A stretch of DNA of 18,196 bases from Leptolyngbyaceae cyanobacterium. GTDB taxonomy: Bacteria > Cyanobacteriota > Cyanobacteriia > Phormidesmidales > Phormidesmidaceae. Shown here piece by piece: positions 7,166-16,153 of this stretch; position 1 is the first letter of the stretch, and every line of letters starts with the position of its first letter. Both the position numbers and the translations under genes were made by a program. The notes beneath the pieces were generated by a model that made no database searches, was not told the origin of the DNA, and worked only from the letters and a program-made list of their open reading frames with translations. The stretch is from assembly GCA_965263355.1 (NCBI GenBank), contig CBDHHL010000036.1, forward strand, positions 1 to 18,196, in the 5' to 3' direction.

Positions 7166-7195
7166 AAACCGCCAAGCTTTTAGGCTCGACGGTTT
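7166..7195 (-). terminator. Probable intrinsic terminator downstream of the RHH gene
   Basis: Minus strand AAACCGTCGAGC-ctaaaa-GCTTGGCGGTTT (two G.U pairs) followed by TTGTTT, about 25 nt after the stop at 7220. Confidence 0.65.
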
Positions 7196-7219: not shown

Positions 7220-7423
7220 CTAGGGAGAAAGATAGGCCGAAATAGCGTCATTTATGAGCTGGCTTAGGCTTAATCCCAGCTCTGTTGCCTTGCTATTTGC
7301 CTTGGCTTTTAGCTGAGTGTCTAACATGATGTTAGTCCTTTGCCTGCGTTCGCTTCCTATCGGCTTTGCCCCGGCGTTGCGGGGATTGCGGGAATTATGT
7401 GTGGCCATATAATTAAAATTCAA
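7220..7423 (-). CDS. Ribbon-helix-helix (CopG/Arc-like) DNA-binding protein
   Basis: RNAGAKP arm followed by RQRTNIMLDTQLKAKANSKATELGLSLSQLINDAISAYL, a canonical RHH pattern. The start is 7423 or 7408. Confidence 0.85.
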   Translation of the reverse strand: MNFNYMATHNSRNPRNAGAKPIGSERRQRTNIMLDTQLKAKANSKATELGLSLSQLINDAISAYLSP

Positions 7424-7792: not shown

Positions 7793-7851
7793 TATATATG
7801 TACGGATAAAAAGACAAACCGCCAAGTTTTTGCACTGCGTTAATTCCATGG

Positions 7852-8117: not shown

Positions 8118-8408
8118 TTAATCTGCGTCTAAGACGGTGTATCCGTTTAATTGCTCTTTTTCATGGTCAGTCAGGAAACCGCCAAGTTTTTGATAAGCCT
8201 TTTGGGTTAAAAACACCCACCTAGTCGACACATGGCCGTAGTGCTCCACTGCATAAACCCCTGTGTTGCCATCGAGAAAGGTTGTCAGGTTGCAGTTTGC
8301 CGCCTTGATATCGTATTTAAGCTGCTGTAAATCACTGAGTGTTTTTACGGCTTTACAATGCTCTGCAACGGCTCCCTGGTTATTAAATACGTAGAATTTT
8401 CTTTTCAT
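8118..8408 (-). CDS. Hypothetical protein, ~96 aa
   Basis: AGGAG RBS before MKRKFYVFNN at 8408. The track start at 8462 is less likely. Confidence 0.75.
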   Translation of the reverse strand: MKRKFYVFNNQGAVAEHCKAVKTLSDLQQLKYDIKAANCNLTTFLDGNTGVYAVEHYGHVSTRWVFLTQKAYQKLGGFLTDHEKEQLNGYTVLDAD

Positions 8409-9368: not shown

Positions 9369-9620
9369 ATGACATCTGAAAAGATATATAAAGCCGACGC
9401 AACAGGCGACTATCAGAACGACGTCGCCGCTTTAAGCCAGCTAAGACAAAGAGGTTTTGAGTGCGGCATTGACGTTGGAGGCTTATGGTTTCTGGCTGAG
9501 CCGACTGAACTATGGCGGGCTAAGGCAGTCTTGGATAGATACGGGCTAAAGGTTGTCGACGAAACAACCGCGAGGTTATTAGCGATGGATCGGCTTAATG
9601 AAGATCCAAGCTCAATCTAA
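9369..9620 (+). CDS. Hypothetical protein, ~83 aa
   Basis: The likely start is MTSEKIY at 9369 (track uses TTG at 9354). It converges on the secreted-protein gene. Confidence 0.65.
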   Translation: MTSEKIYKADATGDYQNDVAALSQLRQRGFECGIDVGGLWFLAEPTELWRAKAVLDRYGLKVVDETTARLLAMDRLNEDPSSI

Positions 9621-10049
9621 ACCACCCTCAACCTCACTAGTGTTGGTGCCTGGTGGCAGCCTAAACTCTATCTCAACTCTGCGCTGCCCTCGCTCGCGCC
9701 TGACCGTGTCAACACTCCATCTACGGCCATCTTGATGCACTACGTAGGGATTAACTGTAGCGCCTTCCTGCGCTGCCCTGGCAAACGTAACTCGCCCAAC
9801 TGCTTTCCCATCCTGGGCGATGCGGACAACCTGGAAAGATGCGATAGGCTGGGTTGAGGGTGGATCTTCTTCCCTGACTGGGGGCTTACTGCCACTTGCT
9901 GCGATAGTTGGCTGTGGCTCGCTGATGTTGCATATACTTTCCAGGTTTATTAGTTCCCCCTGGGCTGTAACCATGTAGCAGAAAGGGTTAGCGATCGCAG
10001 GAGTGCTAACGCCAAGGACTAAAGCAACAGGCAAAAAATATTTGAGCAT
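9612..10049 (-). CDS. Secreted/periplasmic protein of cyanobacterial type
   Basis: Sec-type signal MLKYFLPVALVLGVSTPAIA, then CYMVTAQGELINLESIC (a CxMxxxxGxxINLxxxC motif I associate with cyanobacterial hypothetical proteins), a Pro-rich linker and a beta-rich C-domain. Confidence 0.75.
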   Translation of the reverse strand: MLKYFLPVALVLGVSTPAIANPFCYMVTAQGELINLESICNISEPQPTIAASGSKPPVREEDPPSTQPIASFQVVRIAQDGKAVGRVTFARAAQEGATVNPYVVHQDGRRWSVDTVRRERGQRRVEIEFRLPPGTNTSEVEGGLD

Positions 10050-10252
10050 AGCTTGATATCTCATAAGGGCAGTATAGCTATACTTCAGTGACAGCAAACC
10101 CATCTCGGGATTAACGCCCACTTCCTCGATGACGCAATTTCATAGACTTACCTTGACTCAGCCTTACTTTATACAGGGGCTAAGCCAAAGTTCAGCAGGC
10201 TTTACGAGAGCTTCGCAGTAGTGTGAATCTGTGGTGATACTTCCCCTGAAAG

Positions 10253-10783
10253 TTATCGAATATTCAGGCCTAGCTCTCTTAGCTGCCTAGGAGTGCTGCT
10301 ACTCGCCTTCAGCGCTGCTGCTTTATCTGCATTGCTTGCTCCGTTCCACATGCGGTTCAGCTTATACTTGCCCACCTCGTAAGCTTGTCTAGCGGTTGCC
10401 AGGGAATGCGAGCCGATACTTGTTCCCCCGCCTGCGTCAATGTCTTGTTTGAGATTGCTGGCGAATGTCAGCGTTGCCAGGAAACCGCCGCCGGAAGAAT
10501 CAACCATTTGCGCCCGTGTTGGGTTGGCATAGCTAGCATTCCAGTCCATGCGGTCAAATGTTCCGTCGTTATCGAATACTCTTAAGTTTTGGCCAGACAC
10601 AATCTCGCTCATAGCCGCTGCCGCCGCATCGTTTGGCAGGGCGGAATTTAGTGTAATTTCTGAATTGGCTGCGATAGGCTCAAGTCTGCGCTCTGACTCA
10701 GCAGCCAAAAAAGTAGAGTCTGTTACGCCAGTAGCTGTTGAGCCACCCGCAGATCTGCCACCACCACCTGAACTTCTACCCAC
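10253..10783 (-). CDS. Gly/Arg-leader protein 2 (MGRSSGGGGRSAGG...), unknown function, 176 aa
   Basis: GTG start preceded by AAGGGG. It shares only its N-terminal leader with the upstream ORF. Confidence 0.8.
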   Translation of the reverse strand: MGRSSGGGGRSAGGSTATGVTDSTFLAAESERRLEPIAANSEITLNSALPNDAAAAAMSEIVSGQNLRVFDNDGTFDRMDWNASYANPTRAQMVDSSGGGFLATLTFASNLKQDIDAGGGTSIGSHSLATARQAYEVGKYKLNRMWNGASNADKAAALKASSSTPRQLRELGLNIR

Positions 10784-10865
10784 TGTAGCCCCCCCTTATA
10801 AAATCACTGTGTTCTAACTGCAAGATCCATCGTATGTAGATAAGAACTGCTTTTGCATGGACTGA
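10776..10865 (-). pseudogene. Orphan 3' fragment of a second DUF4417-type gene
   Basis: A frame with no start codon reads SVHAKAVLIYIRWILQLEHSDFIRGGYSG*, compared with ...RQWILQLEHSDFIRGNYG* in 11582..12673. Confidence 0.75.
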
Positions 10866-11633
10866 CTTAAAATTGCTCCCCTACCACATAAACTCTAACC
10901 TCAGTATTTGCTCGCCTAGCTGTGGCTACTGCAGCCGCGTCTCCAATGGGCCTGTAGCTATCTGGTCCAACCCTAACGACAGGCTGAGTGATCCATGTGG
11001 ACCCCTTATTAGATCTAATCGTTCTGGCCGCTTTATCTATCTTGGATTGCGATGCCTTCGTTCTTCCTCCAATAATTGAGCCAGGGCTTACTATTCTTTC
11101 AGTGCCTACCTCTGAAAATGATGACTGCTGGCCCCGCGCATTCCGGCCAAATCTAGGTTTCCCTTGAATTGATGCGGCTGCCTGCGCAGAAGATAAATCA
11201 TTTCTAGCAATAACTTGTACATTTATATTGTTAGCCCCCGACACCCTGCCACTCGCCAGGATTTTAGCGCTGACAGAGTCAACAGGCTCATACTTCCCCT
11301 GATTATTAATGGAAACTAATGCGGGGGTTTGGTTGAGTTCACCACGACTAAAAGCTCTGACCATCCTTGGATCAGGGCTCGCAGATCCAAGCAAGAATTG
11401 AGAGCGAAGCTCGCTTGAATCAAAAACACTCAATGCGCCAGGGCCGCCAGCACCAAATATAAATTCTTTTTCCGCAGACGTTCTCTCTTTTGGTTCCTCT
11501 GTAGGCTCCCCCAACGGGGCCTGATTAACACCACCAGCGCTTCTACCCCCGCCTGAACTTCTGCCACCTCCCCCGCTGCTTCTACCCATAATTACCCCTT
11601 ATAAAATCACTGTGTTCTAGTTGTAAAATCCAT
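10792..11633. repeat. 39-bp direct repeat pair (10792-10830 and 11595-11633; 35/39 identical, 25-bp perfect core)
   Basis: CCCCTTATAAAATCACTGTGTTCTA occurs at 10792-10816 and 11595-11619. CTTCTACCCA also occurs at 10773-10782 and 11579-11588. Confidence 0.95.
10867..11589 (-). CDS. Gly/Arg-leader protein 1 (MGRSSGGGGRSSGGGRSAGG...) with two degenerate ParB/Srx-like domains
   Basis: Its start overlaps the DUF4417 stop. The segments TPALVSINNQGKYEPVDSVSAKILASGRVSGANNINVQVI and KIDKAARTIRSNKGSTWITQPVVRVGPDSYRPIGDAAAVATARRANTEVRVYVV follow ParB-fold spacing but lack GxxR. Confidence 0.75.
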   Translation of the reverse strand: MGRSSGGGGRSSGGGRSAGGVNQAPLGEPTEEPKERTSAEKEFIFGAGGPGALSVFDSSELRSQFLLGSASPDPRMVRAFSRGELNQTPALVSINNQGKYEPVDSVSAKILASGRVSGANNINVQVIARNDLSSAQAAASIQGKPRFGRNARGQQSSFSEVGTERIVSPGSIIGGRTKASQSKIDKAARTIRSNKGSTWITQPVVRVGPDSYRPIGDAAAVATARRANTEVRVYVVGEQF

Positions 11634-12673
11634 TGCCTAGGCGCATCCTGAAATGTTGTTGGCCTTGCTCCATAGACTAACAAAACACACTCATCTGTTC
11701 CAGTGTAGTCAACAATCGCATGCCAGTCGCTCATGGTTGCGTCGTAACCGGCAACGTTGCCATCATCGAAGCTGGCAAGATATCGAGTCGCAAAGTAGCG
11801 CCATTCTTTTGGCACTCCAAGGAAATTCAGGTCATGAAGATGGGGCGACGTGTTCACATCCACCCACACCCTCACGCCTTTCTTCTGCCAATAGCGAGCT
11901 AACCATCGCTTTTTATAAATATCTGTCATGGCCAACGCTCGTGGCATATTCGCCCAGGTGGAAAAGTTTGGCTCAATTACTACGCTGCAGCCAGTCTCTA
12001 ATAAGTCGTCGGGCTTATCCCATACTGCGCTGAATTTATAGTCGTCAGTGTAGAAGTGAATGCCGCCGTCGTGCGTGGCTGTCCTCTGCTGAACCCCCCA
12101 CTTTAGCCAGTCAATATCTGTCGTATCAGGCTGCATGTTGAGATCTAGGTCTGGGATATCCCACTCATTGGAGGAGGGGAATATGTCGTTGGGTTCGGGG
12201 GATGACTCGGAGTCTTCGAGATCGCCCTCTCCATCTATCAGCTGATTAAGTTCGTTCGTTGCGCTTTCAGATAACTGTTCTATTAACTCTTCATACTCTT
12301 GGTCATCGTAGCCGGTGAATAAGCTGGAGTCTGCCTGTGCGATTTCTTCCAGTTCAGCTACTAATAATTGCAAGTCATAACCTGACTCATTAGTTTTGTT
12401 GTCTAAAACTCTAGCGGCTTTTATCGCTGCATCCGCCGACAGTGGAGATATATAGCAAGGCAACTGGGTTAATCCCATCTTGAGCCCAGCCAAGCGCCTA
12501 CCGTGGCCCTTGACGATTAGGAACTTATCGCCTTGCGGGACAACCACCAATGGAACATCAAAGCCTGACAGCTTAATTGATTCCGAGATCGCGTCTATCT
12601 GCCAGTCTGGATGCAGCTTGGCGTTATTCTCATAAGGGACCAGTAGGTTTATATCGATGTCTTGAATGTTCAT
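11582..12673 (-). CDS. ParB-like N-terminal domain + DUF4417 domain protein
   Basis: The N-terminus (LVPYENNAKLHPDWQIDAISESIKLSGFDVPLVV...IVKGHGRRLAG...DNK) is ParB/Srx-like. After an acidic linker, IHFYTDDYKF...IEPNFST...IYKKRWLARYWQKKGVRV...GVPK matches the DUF4417 pattern. Confidence 0.85.
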   Translation of the reverse strand: MNIQDIDINLLVPYENNAKLHPDWQIDAISESIKLSGFDVPLVVVPQGDKFLIVKGHGRRLAGLKMGLTQLPCYISPLSADAAIKAARVLDNKTNESGYDLQLLVAELEEIAQADSSLFTGYDDQEYEELIEQLSESATNELNQLIDGEGDLEDSESSPEPNDIFPSSNEWDIPDLDLNMQPDTTDIDWLKWGVQQRTATHDGGIHFYTDDYKFSAVWDKPDDLLETGCSVVIEPNFSTWANMPRALAMTDIYKKRWLARYWQKKGVRVWVDVNTSPHLHDLNFLGVPKEWRYFATRYLASFDDGNVAGYDATMSDWHAIVDYTGTDECVLLVYGARPTTFQDAPRQWILQLEHSDFIRGNYG

Positions 12674-14055
12674 AGGCTTCCCACCAACTCAGCTGTTTCA
12701 TTAGTCAGTTTTTCATAGCGCCTCAGAATCACCTCGCAGTACTCAGGTGATAACTCCATGCCATAAACAGTGCGATTACCTGGCATTTGTTGGGCGGCAA
12801 TGAGGGTGGTACCTGAACCCAGGAAAGCGTCAAAGACGACATCGTTGCTTCTGCTGCTGTTGCCTATTGCATATTCAACTAACTCAACAGGTTTCATCGT
12901 GGGGTGCAAATCAGACTTTAGGGGTTTGTCGAATTCCCACACAGACATTTCGGAACGGCTTTCTGTGAAGTAATGGCCGCCCCCTGGCTTCCATCCGTAA
13001 TGAATGGGCTCATGCTTTAACTGGTAATCTCCTCTGCCAAGTACGTGATTGTTTTTAACCCAGATTACTTGTGGTTTTAGCAGCCAGCCTGTTTCATGCA
13101 ACGCCATCATCATCATCATCATCAGTTCTCCACCCTGGGGAGAGCAGACGTAGTAAGGGCACCCAGGTTTTGCATTATTGAATAGCGCACTAAAACAAGG
13201 CTTCCATAAATCCTCCAAGCATTCTTCACTTTCTAGGTGATCATTTTCAATAGGAGTCTGAATGCTGTTTCCCCGTCCAACCGCATTCAGACTCCTATTT
13301 TTGTCGGCATAACTAACCCCATAGGGAGGATCTGTAAATATCAAGTCGATAAGGGCACCATTTAACAACGCCCTAACATTGCCTTCATCCGTACTATCAC
13401 CACAGGCAATCCTATGCCTGCCGCACGCCCATATCTGACCAAGCGATACACGACTCTCTATTTCACCGCCAGCAGCTTTATCAAGGTTGTCTGCCAGGGC
13501 ATCCTCATCGTCTTCTAGATCGGGTTCTTCATTGCCAATCATCTCTATCAGCAGATCCAAATCATCCCCATCCACTGTTACGGGCAACGAATCAGCCTGG
13601 GCTAATCGCTCAAGCAATTCCAAATACTCAGCAGGATTGTATAGCCCAGAGATATCCAGCGCAGTGAAAACCCCGCCCGCCATAGTGAGGCTATTATGGT
13701 CCAGGCTGTATGCCAATCCTTCGGCTTCGGTGGCACTGTTGCCCCCAACGATGCAAGGTACAGCCCAATCACCTGACTCGGTGAGCTTGATATAGGCTGG
13801 TGGCACCTCACCTTGTTGACGCAGACACAGCAGCGCTTCTAGCCTGCCGTTCCCCTCGACAACTCCACCTTTGCCATTGTTCAATGCAGCGTCTATAGCT
13901 AGTGGATCGCGAAAACCATAACGCTTAATTGAGGTGCAAATAGCACCAATATCATGCCGCTTTGCATTGCCTTCCAGAAACTTCTCTGAGAGTTCAGAAA
14001 GAAGCAGATAGTTTATGGATAACTGAAGGAGGTCGGCTGCTGCTGTGGTGACCAT
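12670..14055 (-). CDS. ParB-like domain + beta-class N6-adenine/N4-cytosine DNA methyltransferase
   Basis: The N-terminus has NAKRHD...SIKRYGFRDPLAID...VVEGNGR. The MTase has motif IV TDPPY preceding HPTMKPVEL and motif I DAFLGSGTT, plus GMELSPEYC. Confidence 0.93.
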   Translation of the reverse strand: MVTTAAADLLQLSINYLLLSELSEKFLEGNAKRHDIGAICTSIKRYGFRDPLAIDAALNNGKGGVVEGNGRLEALLCLRQQGEVPPAYIKLTESGDWAVPCIVGGNSATEAEGLAYSLDHNSLTMAGGVFTALDISGLYNPAEYLELLERLAQADSLPVTVDGDDLDLLIEMIGNEEPDLEDDEDALADNLDKAAGGEIESRVSLGQIWACGRHRIACGDSTDEGNVRALLNGALIDLIFTDPPYGVSYADKNRSLNAVGRGNSIQTPIENDHLESEECLEDLWKPCFSALFNNAKPGCPYYVCSPQGGELMMMMMMALHETGWLLKPQVIWVKNNHVLGRGDYQLKHEPIHYGWKPGGGHYFTESRSEMSVWEFDKPLKSDLHPTMKPVELVEYAIGNSSRSNDVVFDAFLGSGTTLIAAQQMPGNRTVYGMELSPEYCEVILRRYEKLTNETAELVGSL

Positions 14056-14124
14056 GGCGGCGATTTGCTAGGATTCTAGTATATAGTAGCAAGTACTTTG
14101 CTTGTACCTTATCTGTACTTCAAC

Positions 14125-14643
14125 GTGGGCGGGAAACCAATTAATTGGCCTCATTGGCGAAAGGAGTTTGTGCAAGGCGGGGACGAGATCACCCTGACAG
14201 CTTTATCTAAGCGTCCGCATTCACCTGCGCTACAGACATTTAAGAATAAGTCCGCCGAAGAGAACTGGGACGAACAGCGTAAGCGTTATCGGCGTGAGCT
14301 GGAAAGTCGAGGTGCCTATGATTCTGCGAAAGACGAGATTAAGCCCGAAATTGCTGCTGCCATTGATCGGACGGAGAAGATAATTGACACCGCCGAGATG
14401 CTTACTCAACACAATGCGATCGCTAAAGCATTGATCGGGATAGGTGCTGCGGGCATTAAGGAATTTCAGCTAAATAATTTTGCTAAGGCAAAACAGATGA
14501 AGCCCCGAGAGCTTTTAGAATTCGCTAAGTTTGGCATAGAAATGCAGCGCATTATCGAAGGCATGGCCACCAGCAAAACAGAAATAGATTTCAAGGGCAT
14601 GTCTGACGCGGAATTAAACGCAATTATCGATGGCGACACTTAG
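14125..14643 (+). CDS. terS: Terminase small subunit
   Basis: N-terminal HTH-like NWPHWRKEFVQG...TLTALSK...ENWDEQR, a helical body, and a C-terminal EIDFKGMSDAELNAII. It overlaps the TerL start. The start is probably GTG at 14125 (track 14098). Confidence 0.8.
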   Translation: MGGKPINWPHWRKEFVQGGDEITLTALSKRPHSPALQTFKNKSAEENWDEQRKRYRRELESRGAYDSAKDEIKPEIAAAIDRTEKIIDTAEMLTQHNAIAKALIGIGAAGIKEFQLNNFAKAKQMKPRELLEFAKFGIEMQRIIEGMATSKTEIDFKGMSDAELNAIIDGDT

Positions 14644-16153
14644 AGATCGGGCGCTAGCGGAGAAGGAACGGCGTAGGCGACTGCGGGAAAAAGAGACGGG
14701 AAATGGAGTTATCAAGCCCCCATGGCCAGAATTCGCTAGGCAGACTCGCATCAGATCAGGCCGCAACCTAGTTCTGTTTGACCCATATCCGTATCAAATA
14801 GCTTTTATTGAACAAGTAGAAAAGCACTATGGCACGGTTGCTATCAAGTCTCGGCAGATGGGATTTACTGAGACCATAGCTAATTACTTTTTATGGAAGG
14901 CCTTTAGAGATCCTGGCTACCTCTCCGTCATCTTTTCTAAAAACCAAAGCGATACAGCCAACATCGCTAAGCGTGTCCGCTTGATGATCTCATCAAGATC
15001 TGACCTATCCTTAGCAACTGACAGCCTTCAAGACTTAACACTAGTGGACGGAGGTCGGCTGTTATTTAAGCCAGCAACGCCCAATGCGGCAAGAAGTTTA
15101 GAATCTGTCTCAGACATATTATTTGATGAAGCAGCCTTTGTTGATGGGATTGAGGGCATCTATTCAGCTGCCATGCCATCAACAGAAATGCTAGGCGATG
15201 CCGCCAGAATAATTATTCTGAGCACTCCAAACGGACAATCTGGGTTTTATTGGGACCGAGTGAATGAAGCGAATGGGTCTATTAGCATTATTGAAGCCTG
15301 CCAAAATGCTCGGGTTGGTGAGCCGGTGAAATATTGGACTGACCAAGGGGGGTGGTGCAAGTTTTTAGCGCACTGGCGAGCCCATCCAGTTTATTCAAAA
15401 AAACCAGATTATCTGGAGGGTTTGGCAACGCAAAAGCGGATGCCAGCATCCAAAATTGAACAAGAATACGACTTAAGTTTCACTAAGTCTCAAGAAGGCA
15501 GGTTGATCAAGAAATTTGATGAGAACCGTCACGTATTGCGTGGCTTTGATTCAATACTCTGTACATATGACAATAAGCTGCCACTACATCTAATTTTCGA
15601 CTTCAACCGATCACCGGCTACGGCATTAGTAGGCCAGCAGCATACATCAGAGTTGAGAGTAATCTACGAATTTTGTCTTTGGGATTCAGATACCTTTGAA
15701 TTGGCTGAAAATGTTTGCCTATGGGTTAAAGAAATAGGTCATCAAGGCCCTTGCTATATCTATGGAGACGCTACTGGGCGCAATCCTAGCGCCAACAGCA
15801 GACAAACGAACTGGCAGATTGTATGGAGTAAGCTGGCCGCCCATGGGATAAGAGCATTTAAGCGCTACAAAAACTCAAATCCATCTGTTGCGGACAGTGT
15901 TTTGAGCCTAGAGTATGCGTTTGAGATAGACAAAGTTTTCATCAATGGCGAGGCTTGCCCCGAGTTGATAGCGGACTTAAACACTGTCAAGGGCAAGGAT
16001 GGAGGTATTGCTAAGATTGACAAGTCTGATCCTAAACGTACTCATTGGCTGGATGAATTAAGATACTGGGTGGACAGCCTCATGCCATATCGTGGCAATC
16101 AAGCCAACAGGCCACGCGAAGCCCGCCAACGACTAAAAGGAATTGTCAGCTAA
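14630..16153 (+). CDS. terL: Terminase large subunit
   Basis: Adenine-binding PYPYQ, Walker A KSRQMGFTE, Walker B ILFDEAAF, coupling motif IIILSTPNG, EQEY, and RNase H-like nuclease motifs LIFDFN, YGDATG and HWLDELRY. Confidence 0.96.
   Translation: MATLRDRALAEKERRRRLREKETGNGVIKPPWPEFARQTRIRSGRNLVLFDPYPYQIAFIEQVEKHYGTVAIKSRQMGFTETIANYFLWKAFRDPGYLSVIFSKNQSDTANIAKRVRLMISSRSDLSLATDSLQDLTLVDGGRLLFKPATPNAARSLESVSDILFDEAAFVDGIEGIYSAAMPSTEMLGDAARIIILSTPNGQSGFYWDRVNEANGSISIIEACQNARVGEPVKYWTDQGGWCKFLAHWRAHPVYSKKPDYLEGLATQKRMPASKIEQEYDLSFTKSQEGRLIKKFDENRHVLRGFDSILCTYDNKLPLHLIFDFNRSPATALVGQQHTSELRVIYEFCLWDSDTFELAENVCLWVKEIGHQGPCYIYGDATGRNPSANSRQTNWQIVWSKLAAHGIRAFKRYKNSNPSVADSVLSLEYAFEIDKVFINGEACPELIADLNTVKGKDGGIAKIDKSDPKRTHWLDELRYWVDSLMPYRGNQANRPREARQRLKGIVS

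What the first reader, a model, noticed from the sequence alone, without database searches (positions are those of the whole stretch)
10253..14055. Candidate new system: packaging-linked ParB-MTase / ParB-DUF4417 operon with cargo proteins sharing an MGRSSGGGGRS leader
Seen: four co-oriented genes are transcribed divergently from terS, the first three with overlapping stop/start codons. The last two proteins (240 and 176 aa) show no similarity I can detect except a near-identical N-terminus, MGRSSGGGGRS(S/A)GG, written with different codons, so the peptide appears to be under selection. Both lack Cys and are rich in small residues. Established: Met before Gly is normally removed, exposing an N-terminal Gly. 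ParB-fused modification enzymes often sit next to terminase genes. T4 internal proteins use a shared N-terminal capsid-targeting peptide. My recollection (unverified) is that DUF4417 genes are often followed by ORFs starting MGGRG-like. Inference: the leader is a recognition tag for the DUF4417 enzyme, which would either modify the cargo, attach it to phage DNA, or load it into the head so that variable effectors (for example anti-defence proteins) are delivered with the genome.
Basis: partly seen in the sequence, partly recalled or inferred. Interest (0 to 1): 0.9.

Follow-up and report, generated by a model that had tools for sequence, protein, structure and literature searches.

The report
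Phage enzyme with swappable tagged cargo
Next to its DNA-packaging genes this phage encodes an enzyme shaped like base-swapping enzymes, followed by two unrelated proteins that start with the same short glycine/arginine tag; the pairing recurs in many phages and may be an untested way of fastening effector proteins to the viral genome for delivery into the next host.

Summary
ParB-methyltransferase, ParB-DUF4417 and two Cys-free proteins sharing MGRSSGGGGRS run divergently from terS/terL. Three refinements. The 240-aa protein is a degenerate tandem ParB/Srx fold. The 176-aa gene is preceded by a relic DUF4417 3' end, so the two tags share ancestry. The tag is not always Gly-first. The pairing is general: 31 of 62 DUF4417 clusters are directly followed by a strict-tag ORF, against 1 of 202 control stops, and the tags head about 79 unrelated body families, some of them ADP-ribosyltransferases. 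DUF4417 models as a partial TIM barrel closest to TGT/DpdA, without a conserved Asp on its last strand. New here: the same two cargo bodies also occur with other tags (one pair 94% identical). In the two phage contigs with the closest terminases, a radical-SAM enzyme plus a different tag stands beside terS instead. Best reading (0.42, untested): the enzyme recognises the tag and covalently couples cargo to phage DNA for co-packaging. The scan noted the DUF4417-tag pairing before on other DNA. My literature searches found no description of it.

The parts
12670..14055 (-). ParB-like domain fused to N6/N4 DNA methyltransferase (461 aa); variable neighbour rather than a core part of the module
   Evidence: PF01555 E 2e-24; phrog_498 E 2e-93
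11582..12673 (-). ParB-DUF4417 fusion (363 aa). ParB domain with an intact GxxR motif (KGHGRR); DUF4417 domain about 11582-12190, a partial TIM barrel of TGT-like shape with invariant YTDDY aspartates
   Evidence: PF14386 108 bits, ParB_N E 1e-3; model pLDDT 89.5; fold searches; conservation
10867..11589 (-). Cargo 1 (240 aa): tag plus two tandem degenerate ParB/Srx-fold domains (about residues 52-144 and 162-240) lacking the GxxR arginine
11530..11589 (-). Tag of cargo 1, MGRSSGGGGRSSGGGRSAGG (motif present twice); overlaps the DUF4417 stop by 8 nt
10792..10830 (-). Relic of a DUF4417 3' end (reads WILQLEHSDFIRG), 90% identical to 11595-11633, with the purine-rich likely ribosome-binding site of cargo 2
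   Evidence: repeat D1, translation, four synonymous differences
10253..10783 (-). Cargo 2 (176 aa, GTG start): tag plus a conserved body of unknown fold with 7 homologs at 59-85% identity
   Evidence: no Pfam, PHROG or NCBIfam hit
10742..10783 (-). Tag of cargo 2, MGRSSGGGGRSAGG
14098..14643 (+). Putative terminase small subunit, divergent from the module
   Evidence: position before terL; 33-36% identical to the genes before terL in L402/L404; no HMM hit
14630..16153 (+). Terminase large subunit
   Evidence: phrog_2 E 2e-31; Terminase_6N E 2e-4

Best explanation
An enzyme-addressed cargo system of a tailed, probably cyanobacterial, phage. SHOWN: a DUF4417 gene travels with one or more downstream genes whose bodies are freely exchanged but which start with a short acid-poor Gly-rich tag (K/R-x-x-G-G-x-R, or MGGRG in a sister clade), often beside the terminase genes. 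INFERRED: the genes are expressed late. ParB holds the enzyme on phage DNA. The TGT-like barrel attacks a base (guanine, by analogy), using its invariant Asp pair, and resolves the intermediate with a nucleophile from the tag: the alpha-amine freed by Met removal, or the conserved Lys/Arg, whose guanidinium could sit in a guanine pocket. Cargo is thereby tethered to phage DNA, packaged, and ejected with the genome, where it acts before phage genes are expressed (anti-defence or host takeover). Cargo 1, a two-domain ParB/Srx fold without the catalytic Arg, would be a decoy or binder rather than an NTPase. Cargo 2 is of unknown activity.
For: Association: 31 of 62 DUF4417 clusters (70% identity) have a strict-tag ORF directly after the stop, against 1 of 202 control stops. 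Within -1.8/+2.6 kb the figure is 32 of 62, against 1 of 62 on the opposite strand. In reverse, 71 of 80 listed MGGRGASSG loci carry DUF4417 within 2.5 kb. Modularity: 368 tag ORFs fall into 86 body families (79 after removing 7 non-cargo families by eye). Their Pfam hits are ADP-ribosyltransferases, a Gln amidase, and weak CdiA_C, LPD3 and MuF_C matches; ARTs and LPDs are among the head-delivered effector domains discussed in PMC5512222 and PMC9503650 (passages). Tag tracks enzyme: all 16 MGGRG rows sit in one DUF4417 clade with [STA]73/D75/[TS]111, and 32 of 33 other-tag rows have E73/N75/D111. Both cargo families also occur with a Q-x-G-N-G-G tag (P0082 vs P0084 94% identical over 216 aa). 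In L402/L404, whose terS/terL are the closest to this window among fetched loci, that tag follows a radical-SAM gene beside terS. Its nearest cultured matches are M6 gp53 and Yuavirus relatives (27%, E 8e-4); gp53 acts on glycine attached to DNA thymine (PMC8989533). The 79.7-kb L402 record has no DUF4417. Fold: TGT/DpdA chains are 4 of the top 5 of 48,161 (Z 8.9-9.3, rmsd 3.3-3.9, 171-177 aligned). Precedent: the TGT-family Cap10 holds a Gly-rich M(G/S)G(G/S)GG N-terminus in its active site, poised for transfer (bioRxiv 2025.04.06.647259). Timing: in D29/L5 late transcription starts about 230 bp from the left end (PMC5712189), upstream of the DUF4417 and MGGRG genes of D29-like phages.
Against: No binding, chemistry or virion data. 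The TGT rank is tied within 1 Z unit with unrelated barrels; Foldseek's best E is 3e-3; hhalign with small TGT alignments gave no signal. The last strand has no conserved Asp, so the TGT nucleophile seems absent, although the mapping rests on aligned ranges only. No QueC partner is in the window. By general knowledge, a folded 15-25 kDa adduct is hard to pass through a portal unless it sits at genome ends, unfolds, or is attached inside the head. Half of the clusters lack a strict tag (31 of 62); many have a looser one, some none (Mic1). Gly-rich basic starts also occur on 9 of 17 loci without DUF4417. The tag regex was written. The radical-SAM parallel rests on two related contigs (93% identical enzyme); a further pattern scan gave 7 unrelated hits. 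The clade-tag match is one split on a quick tree.
Confidence: 0.42

Rival explanations
1. T4-like loading: the tag is a non-covalent capsid- or DNA-targeting arm (basic, Gly/Arg-rich) that gets cargo into the prohead. DUF4417 is only an adaptor or chaperone, or an independent DNA-modifying enzyme in the same late operon.
For: T4 internal proteins are diverse defence proteins sharing only a capsid-targeting sequence (PMC3012670). 91% of cargo families are net basic. Similar Gly-rich starts occur on long proteins without DUF4417 that resemble tail-tip and ejection proteins (resemblance recalled, not tested). The TGT nucleophile is not evident.
Against: The tag type follows the enzyme clade or enzyme family. 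The tag stays next to DUF4417 across phages of many host phyla with different head genes, and inside a tRNA cluster away from head genes in phage Tyson. DUF4417 keeps invariant polar residues (D50 74 of 74, Q102 97%, R95 90%).
Confidence: 0.25
2. DUF4417 modifies the tag with a small group (a nucleobase or similar) or binds a modified tag, as Cap10 does with NDG-CdnD. This licenses loading or keeps toxic cargo inactive until delivery (an antitoxin-like role); no DNA link is formed.
For: Cap10 precedent; the QatB N-terminal glycine motif (PMC13279940); toxic cargo classes such as ARTs would need silencing during late expression; QueC lies near DUF4417 in one Bacteroides phage cluster.
Against: No QueC-like gene in the window or seen in most loci inspected; in that Bacteroides cluster QueC sits with its own TGT-like genes. 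One enzyme serving about 79 unrelated bodies fits addressing better than immunity. ParB fusion points to DNA.
Confidence: 0.2
3. The target is RNA or host DNA rather than the phage genome: DUF4417 fastens tagged effectors to host tRNA or chromosome inside the infected cell.
For: The TGT fold acts on tRNA; in cluster L mycobacteriophage Tyson the pair lies among tRNA genes and the enzyme is annotated as queuine tRNA-ribosyltransferase.
Against: Location beside terminase genes in the window and in several annotated phages, late expression in D29/L5, and ParB fusion.
Confidence: 0.08
4. The tag is only a recombination and translation-coupling anchor: a conserved junction where new genes are swapped in behind DUF4417, with no role as a peptide.
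For: The relic DUF4417 tail plus tag upstream of cargo 2 shows recombination at this junction.
Against: The peptide is conserved with 6 of 11 codons changed. 0 of 96 other second-position cargos have such a relic. Tags also occur upstream of or distant from DUF4417.
Confidence: 0.05

Closest known systems
T4 internal proteins (IPI etc.) with capsid-targeting sequence (PMC3012670, passages)
   Same: Diverse small effector bodies that share only a short N-terminal tag; proposed delivery with the genome
   Different: The T4 tag is described as targeting to the scaffolding core; here the tag is Gly/Arg-rich and acid-poor and co-occurs with, and co-varies with, a dedicated DNA-modification-fold enzyme. 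Virion location is not shown here.
Type IV CBASS Cap10-CdnD with Cap9 (bioRxiv 10.1101/2025.04.06.647259, parts 1-2 of 5 read) and QatBC (PMC13279940, passages)
   Same: A TGT-fold enzyme paired with a protein whose flexible Gly-rich N-terminus enters the active site; proposed transfer of a protein to a target
   Different: Host defence rather than phage; one fixed substrate; needs QueC-like Cap9 to add a deazaguanine; Cap10 keeps the nucleophile Asp (D248) and Gly2 is essential. Here there is no QueC in the window, cargo is variable, and position 2 is G, A or S.
TGT / DpdA base-exchange transglycosylases
   Same: Best structural neighbours of the DUF4417 model (Z 8.9-9.7); a T-D-D motif plausibly in the place of TGT's T-D-S
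   Different: About 200-aa truncated barrel, 6-10% identity, no zinc subdomain, no conserved Asp on the last strand, fused to ParB
MuF-fused polymorphic and polyvalent phage effectors (PMC5512222, PMC9503650; passages)
   Same: Overlapping effector repertoire (ART, LPD3, MuF_C, CdiA_C-like, papain-fold) near terminase-portal genes
   Different: Addressed by a folded MuF head domain in cis; here by a 10-15-residue tag with a separate enzyme gene
Phage M6 gp51/gp53 glycine-thymine DNA hypermodification (PMC8989533, passages)
   Same: Phage enzymes that join glycine to DNA bases; gp53 is among the nearest cultured matches to the radical-SAM enzyme paired with the alternative tag
   Different: Uses free glycine, not a protein tag; the similarity is weak (27%, E 8e-4) and concerns L402/L404, not this window

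Membership tests
DUF4417 (PF14386) | Score above the Pfam gathering cut-off | tested here: met
   108 bits against 28.9
TGT/DpdA transglycosylases | TIM-barrel fold closest to TGT | tested here: inconclusive
   Partial barrel; TGT family ranks first but is tied within 1 Z with other barrels; no profile signal
TGT/DpdA transglycosylases | Nucleophilic Asp on the late barrel strand (DxFD motif) | tested here: inconclusive
   No conserved Asp at positions 187-192 over 74 rows; strand equivalence inferred from aligned ranges only (model 18-202 with TGT 12-291)
TGT/DpdA transglycosylases | C-terminal zinc-binding subdomain (recalled feature of tRNA TGTs) | tested here: not met
   The protein ends at the barrel; no invariant Cys in alignment A1
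TGT/DpdA transglycosylases | Base-exchange activity | not testable with these tools
   Needs biochemistry
Type IV CBASS Cap9/Cap10 | QueC-like partner and CD-NTase substrate in the operon | tested here: not met
   No such Pfam hit among 22 window ORFs; cargo 1 is a ParB fold; the rest of the genome is not held
Type IV CBASS Cap9/Cap10 | Substrate N-terminus M(G/S)G(G/S)GG with essential Gly2 | tested here: not met
   Window tag is MGRSSGG; family-wide position 2 is G 53%, A 36%, S 10%, position 3 mostly K
T4-type internal proteins | Shared short N-terminal tag on unrelated bodies | tested here: met
T4-type internal proteins | Encapsidation, proteolytic maturation and injection | not testable with these tools
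   No virion proteome found in the paper searches
MuF polymorphic toxins | N-terminal MuF domain on the effector | tested here: not met
   No MuF head-domain hit in window cargos or in 105 scanned cargo proteins
ParB/Srx superfamily (cargo 1) | ParB/Srx fold | tested here: met
   The six matches at Z 5 or more of 48,161 chains include KorB Z 7.6 (rmsd 3.0, 84 aligned), PadC Z 7.3 and sulfiredoxin Z 6.9 (rmsd 2.6, 76 aligned), covering both halves; top 12 rows are ParB/Srx-type by my knowledge
ParB/Srx superfamily (cargo 1) | GxxR nucleotide-binding motif | tested here: not met
   No conserved Arg at that place in either repeat across 20 aligned homologs

The most novel reading that the evidence does not exclude
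Tailed phages have a general, undescribed delivery route in which a DNA-base-modifying enzyme covalently staples any protein bearing its cognate short tag onto the phage genome. It has evolved at least twice, with a TGT-like barrel (DUF4417; K/R-xx-GG-x-R and MGGRG tags) and with a radical-SAM enzyme (Q-x-GNGG tag), and the same cargo bodies are re-addressed by swapping tags.
Probability: 0.35. Interest if true: 0.95.

Novelty: new variant of a known kind. Interest (0 to 1): 0.8.

Why it matters
DUF4417 is common in cultured phages (492 GenBank records, including D29-like mycobacteriophages and Streptococcus phages) and has no assigned function. The tag gives a simple sequence handle for finding a large set of candidate injected anti-defence or takeover proteins (about 79 body families here; 93 of 105 scanned proteins had no Pfam hit). 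If the link is covalent it would be a new protein-DNA conjugation chemistry and a new delivery route, and a two-part enzyme/tag tool. It is directly testable in D29 or StarStuff on Mycobacterium smegmatis.

Tried and rejected
Cargo 1 and 2 as paralogues: rejected. Independent convergence of the two window tags: rejected, because of the relic DUF4417 tail. Relic tails as a general growth mechanism: 0 of 96 other second-position cargos. Obligatory N-terminal Gly: rejected. Sequence-level link of DUF4417 to PDB chains or TGT: none (0 hits, hhalign against 6 TGT and 2 phage TGT-like sequences, probability 0.1%; these alignments were shallow). The window's own genome is not held. Genomic context of cargo homologs: metagenome scans with cargo 2 and its alignment confirmed nothing (597 and 207 candidate stretches); the cargo 1 alignment was too diverse to scan; tblastn of P0043 and P0057 against cultured phages gave no match. 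So the link between the alternative tag and the radical-SAM gene was not seen on cargo 1/2 homologs themselves. A second pattern scan for the alternative tag gave 7 hits, none a tag ORF of this kind. ESM Atlas: cargo 1 only sub-0.9 leads to ParB-like clusters, cargo 2 nothing. The enzyme-peptide co-fold was not available. No RNA holder was listed. Contig depth over cargo 1 was lower than over cargo 2 and the DUF4417 core in all 3 runs; the tool warns that contig depth cannot rank genes, so I do not use it as evidence. Promoter and terminator scans were at or below chance; no Rfam hit. Literature: DUF4417 appears in 4 papers, 3 listed, and in the passages read it is only an annotation or a ParB fusion partner. 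Searches for tag strings with 'phage' and for enzyme-mediated protein-DNA attachment in phages found no description. Most subscription journals and all bioRxiv supplements are outside the library. No virion proteomics was found for a carrier phage.


Full report
OBSERVATION. The four minus-strand genes, their overlaps and their divergence from terS/terL are as described. The window is a tailed-phage segment (terL phrog_2). A cyanobacterial host is my inference from the look of its genes and the Microcystis phage Mic1 top hit; it is not shown. The two small proteins share their first 11 residues while 6 of these codons differ. Their bodies are unrelated by BLASTP and by profile comparison of their families.

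First, the 83-nt gap before cargo 2 holds a 39-nt copy of the last codons of the DUF4417 gene. All four differences are synonymous in the DUF4417 frame. Cargo 2 therefore once followed another DUF4417 allele directly, and the tandem arose by recombination; the two tags are related by descent. None of 96 other second-position cargos had such a relic. Second, cargo 1 has 21 relatives and folds (pLDDT 85.5) as two tandem ParB/Srx domains (KorB Z 7.6 for residues 52-144, sulfiredoxin Z 6.9 for 162-240) without the GxxR arginine. Cargo 2 has 7 relatives and no fold assignment.

IS THE PAIRING GENERAL? From 251 DUF4417 genes in loci fetched with DUF4417 queries (and annotated phages), 63 clusters at 70% identity were formed and 62 scored (one lacked downstream DNA). 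A strict tag pattern begins the next ORF in 31 of 62, against 1 of 202 control stops; a looser pattern gives 43 of 62 against 14 of 202. The patterns were written after viewing, so the controls matter more than the rates. Within -1.8/+2.6 kb, 32 of 62 have a strict tag ORF, 8 have two or more, and the opposite strand gives 1 of 62. Reverse tests on viral contigs: MGRSSGGGGR-type, 4 of 7 hits directly follow DUF4417; M[GA]K-type, 8 of 17, several being contigs already found; MGGRGASSG-type, 71 of the 80 listed loci out of 124 found, mostly related gut phages. The 9 M[GA]K misses include long proteins that I recognise, from memory only, as tail-tip and ejection proteins, so Gly-rich starts are not exclusive to this module. 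Some DUF4417 genes have no tag nearby (Mic1). In a large Bacteroides phage cluster the tag genes, where present, lie 0.5-1.5 kb further on.

WHAT THE TAG CARRIES. 368 tag ORFs form 86 single-linkage body families; I dropped 7 as non-cargo by eye, leaving 79. Median length is 133 aa and 91% are net basic. Position 2 is G 53%, A 36%, S 10%, and 49 of 53 non-MGGRG families have Gly-small-x(0-3)-Arg. Of 105 proteins scanned, 12 had a Pfam hit: three ADPrib_exo_Tox, one Gln amidase and one DUF3626 above cut-off; ART, three CdiA_C, LPD3, MuF_C and one other below it. ARTs and LPDs are among the head-delivered effector domains discussed in PMC5512222 and PMC9503650 (passages only).

THE ENZYME. The DUF4417 model (pLDDT 89.5) is a partial TIM barrel. 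TGT-family chains are 4 of the top 5 of 48,161 representatives (Z 8.9-9.3), but unrelated barrels lie within 1 Z; Foldseek's best E is 3e-3 for TGT; residues 18-202 align with TGT 12-291. D50 is invariant in 74 rows and D49 is in 65 of 74; the last strand has no conserved Asp. So it works plausibly like a base-excising barrel, but I do not file it as a TGT. A quick tree of 74 rows splits into two clades (support 100). All 16 MGGRG rows fall in one, with [STA]73/D75/[TS]111; 32 of 33 other-tag rows have E73/N75/D111, the exception being a locus with two DUF4417 genes. This is one split, with sampling seeded by each tag type, so it fits enzyme-tag matching but does not show co-evolution.

TAG SWAPPING AND A SECOND ENZYME. 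Relatives of both cargos carry the same small set of alternative N-termini: MGRSS/MGRGG-GGGR, Q-x-G-N-G-G, and MAAKGGTWTK types. P0082 and P0084 are 94% identical over 216 residues yet carry different tags. A scan for the Q-x-GNGG tag found one viral contig, L402. There the tag gene lies between a radical-SAM gene and terS. A second contig, L404, has a 93%-identical enzyme followed by the same tag type on a body that differs by eye and has a weak ART match. These two have the closest terS (33-36%) and terL (41-42%) to this window among all fetched loci. The 79.7-kb L402 record with terminal repeats has no DUF4417, and three DUF4417 records lack the radical-SAM gene; all five may be incomplete. 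The enzyme's nearest cultured matches are M6 gp53 and its Yuavirus relatives (27%, E 8e-4). Gp53 isomerises glycine attached to DNA thymine (PMC8989533, passages). Two unrelated DNA-base-modifying folds thus each sit beside terS with their own tag and swappable cargo. The support is thin: two related contigs, a further scan with no true hit, and no context for the cargo 1/2 homologs with that tag.

MECHANISM. Shown: gene anatomy, association, modularity and folds. Taken from papers: Cap10, a TGT-family enzyme, binds a Gly-rich modified N-terminus in its active site (bioRxiv 2025.04.06.647259, parts 1-2 of 5); T4 uses a shared tag to encapsidate diverse defence proteins (PMC3012670, passages); in D29/L5 late transcripts start about 230 bp from the left end (PMC5712189, passages), upstream of the DUF4417 and MGGRG genes of D29-like phages. 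Inferred: the enzyme recognises the tag and couples cargo to phage DNA for co-packaging and injection (0.42). Rivals: non-covalent T4-like loading (0.25), a small modification or silencing of the tag (0.2), an RNA or host-DNA target (0.08), a mere recombination anchor (0.05). The enzyme-peptide co-fold was not available, so binding is untested.

NOVELTY. DUF4417 appears in 4 papers of the library, and in the three read in passages only as an annotation or a ParB fusion partner. Searches found no description of the tag or of enzyme-mediated cargo attachment; the library lacks most subscription journals, and supplements were not read. Earlier notes of this scan report the DUF4417-tag pairing on other DNA; they are unchecked AI notes and not independent support. 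I found no note on tag swapping or on the radical-SAM counterpart. Verdict: a real, widespread, undescribed module. On what is shown it is a new variant of tag-addressed phage cargo; it would be categorically new if the covalent link holds.

Noticed in passing
L402:7277-9378 (-) and L404:1-1397 (+): Radical-SAM gene (Rv2578c/M6 gp53-like) followed by a Q-x-GNGG-tagged cargo just before terS; a candidate second enzyme-tag system. In L402 an HNH gene with a duplicated N-terminus precedes it, its Cys motif is separated from the rest by a frame break, and a Mom-like gene lies upstream.
   Followed up: partly
L261, L267, L269, L275; L265, L266, L272: MGKGGGGGG-type N-termini on long proteins without DUF4417 nearby; from memory they resemble lambda-J-type tail-tip proteins and podophage ejection proteins.
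   Followed up: no
L014:3968-8048, L059, L067: Bacteroides gut phages carry DUF4417 next to two TGT-like (phrog_887) genes and QueC; tag genes are displaced 0.5-1.5 kb or absent.
   Followed up: partly
L413:392-2097 (StarStuff, KX897981): The MGGRG-tagged ORF overlaps the 3' end of the DUF4417 gene; the annotated start (1318) omits the tag.
   Followed up: partly
proteins P0060/P0047, P0063/P0066, P0070: Further N-terminal types on the same cargo families (MAAKGGTWTK-, MSxKCxPxLS-, and a Cys-rich motif), suggesting more addressing systems.
   Followed up: no
window 13100-13120 (-): Run of six Met codons in the methyltransferase; one run's contig has a 3-nt deletion there.
   Followed up: no
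window 13249-13299: 21-nt inverted repeat, 95% complementary, 9-nt loop, inside the methyltransferase gene.
   Followed up: no
window 7166-7182, 7816-7832, 8176-8192: Three copies of a 17-nt repeat among small minus-strand ORFs; possible operator or promoter element near an RHH repressor gene (7220-7423).
   Followed up: no
window 9612-10121 (-): 169-aa ORF downstream of cargo 2 with what looks like a signal peptide; no family hit.
   Followed up: no
L161:4911-5952 (Tyson, MT771349): DUF4417 and an MGRGR-tagged ORF lie inside a tRNA gene cluster; depositors annotated the enzyme as queuine tRNA-ribosyltransferase.
   Followed up: partly
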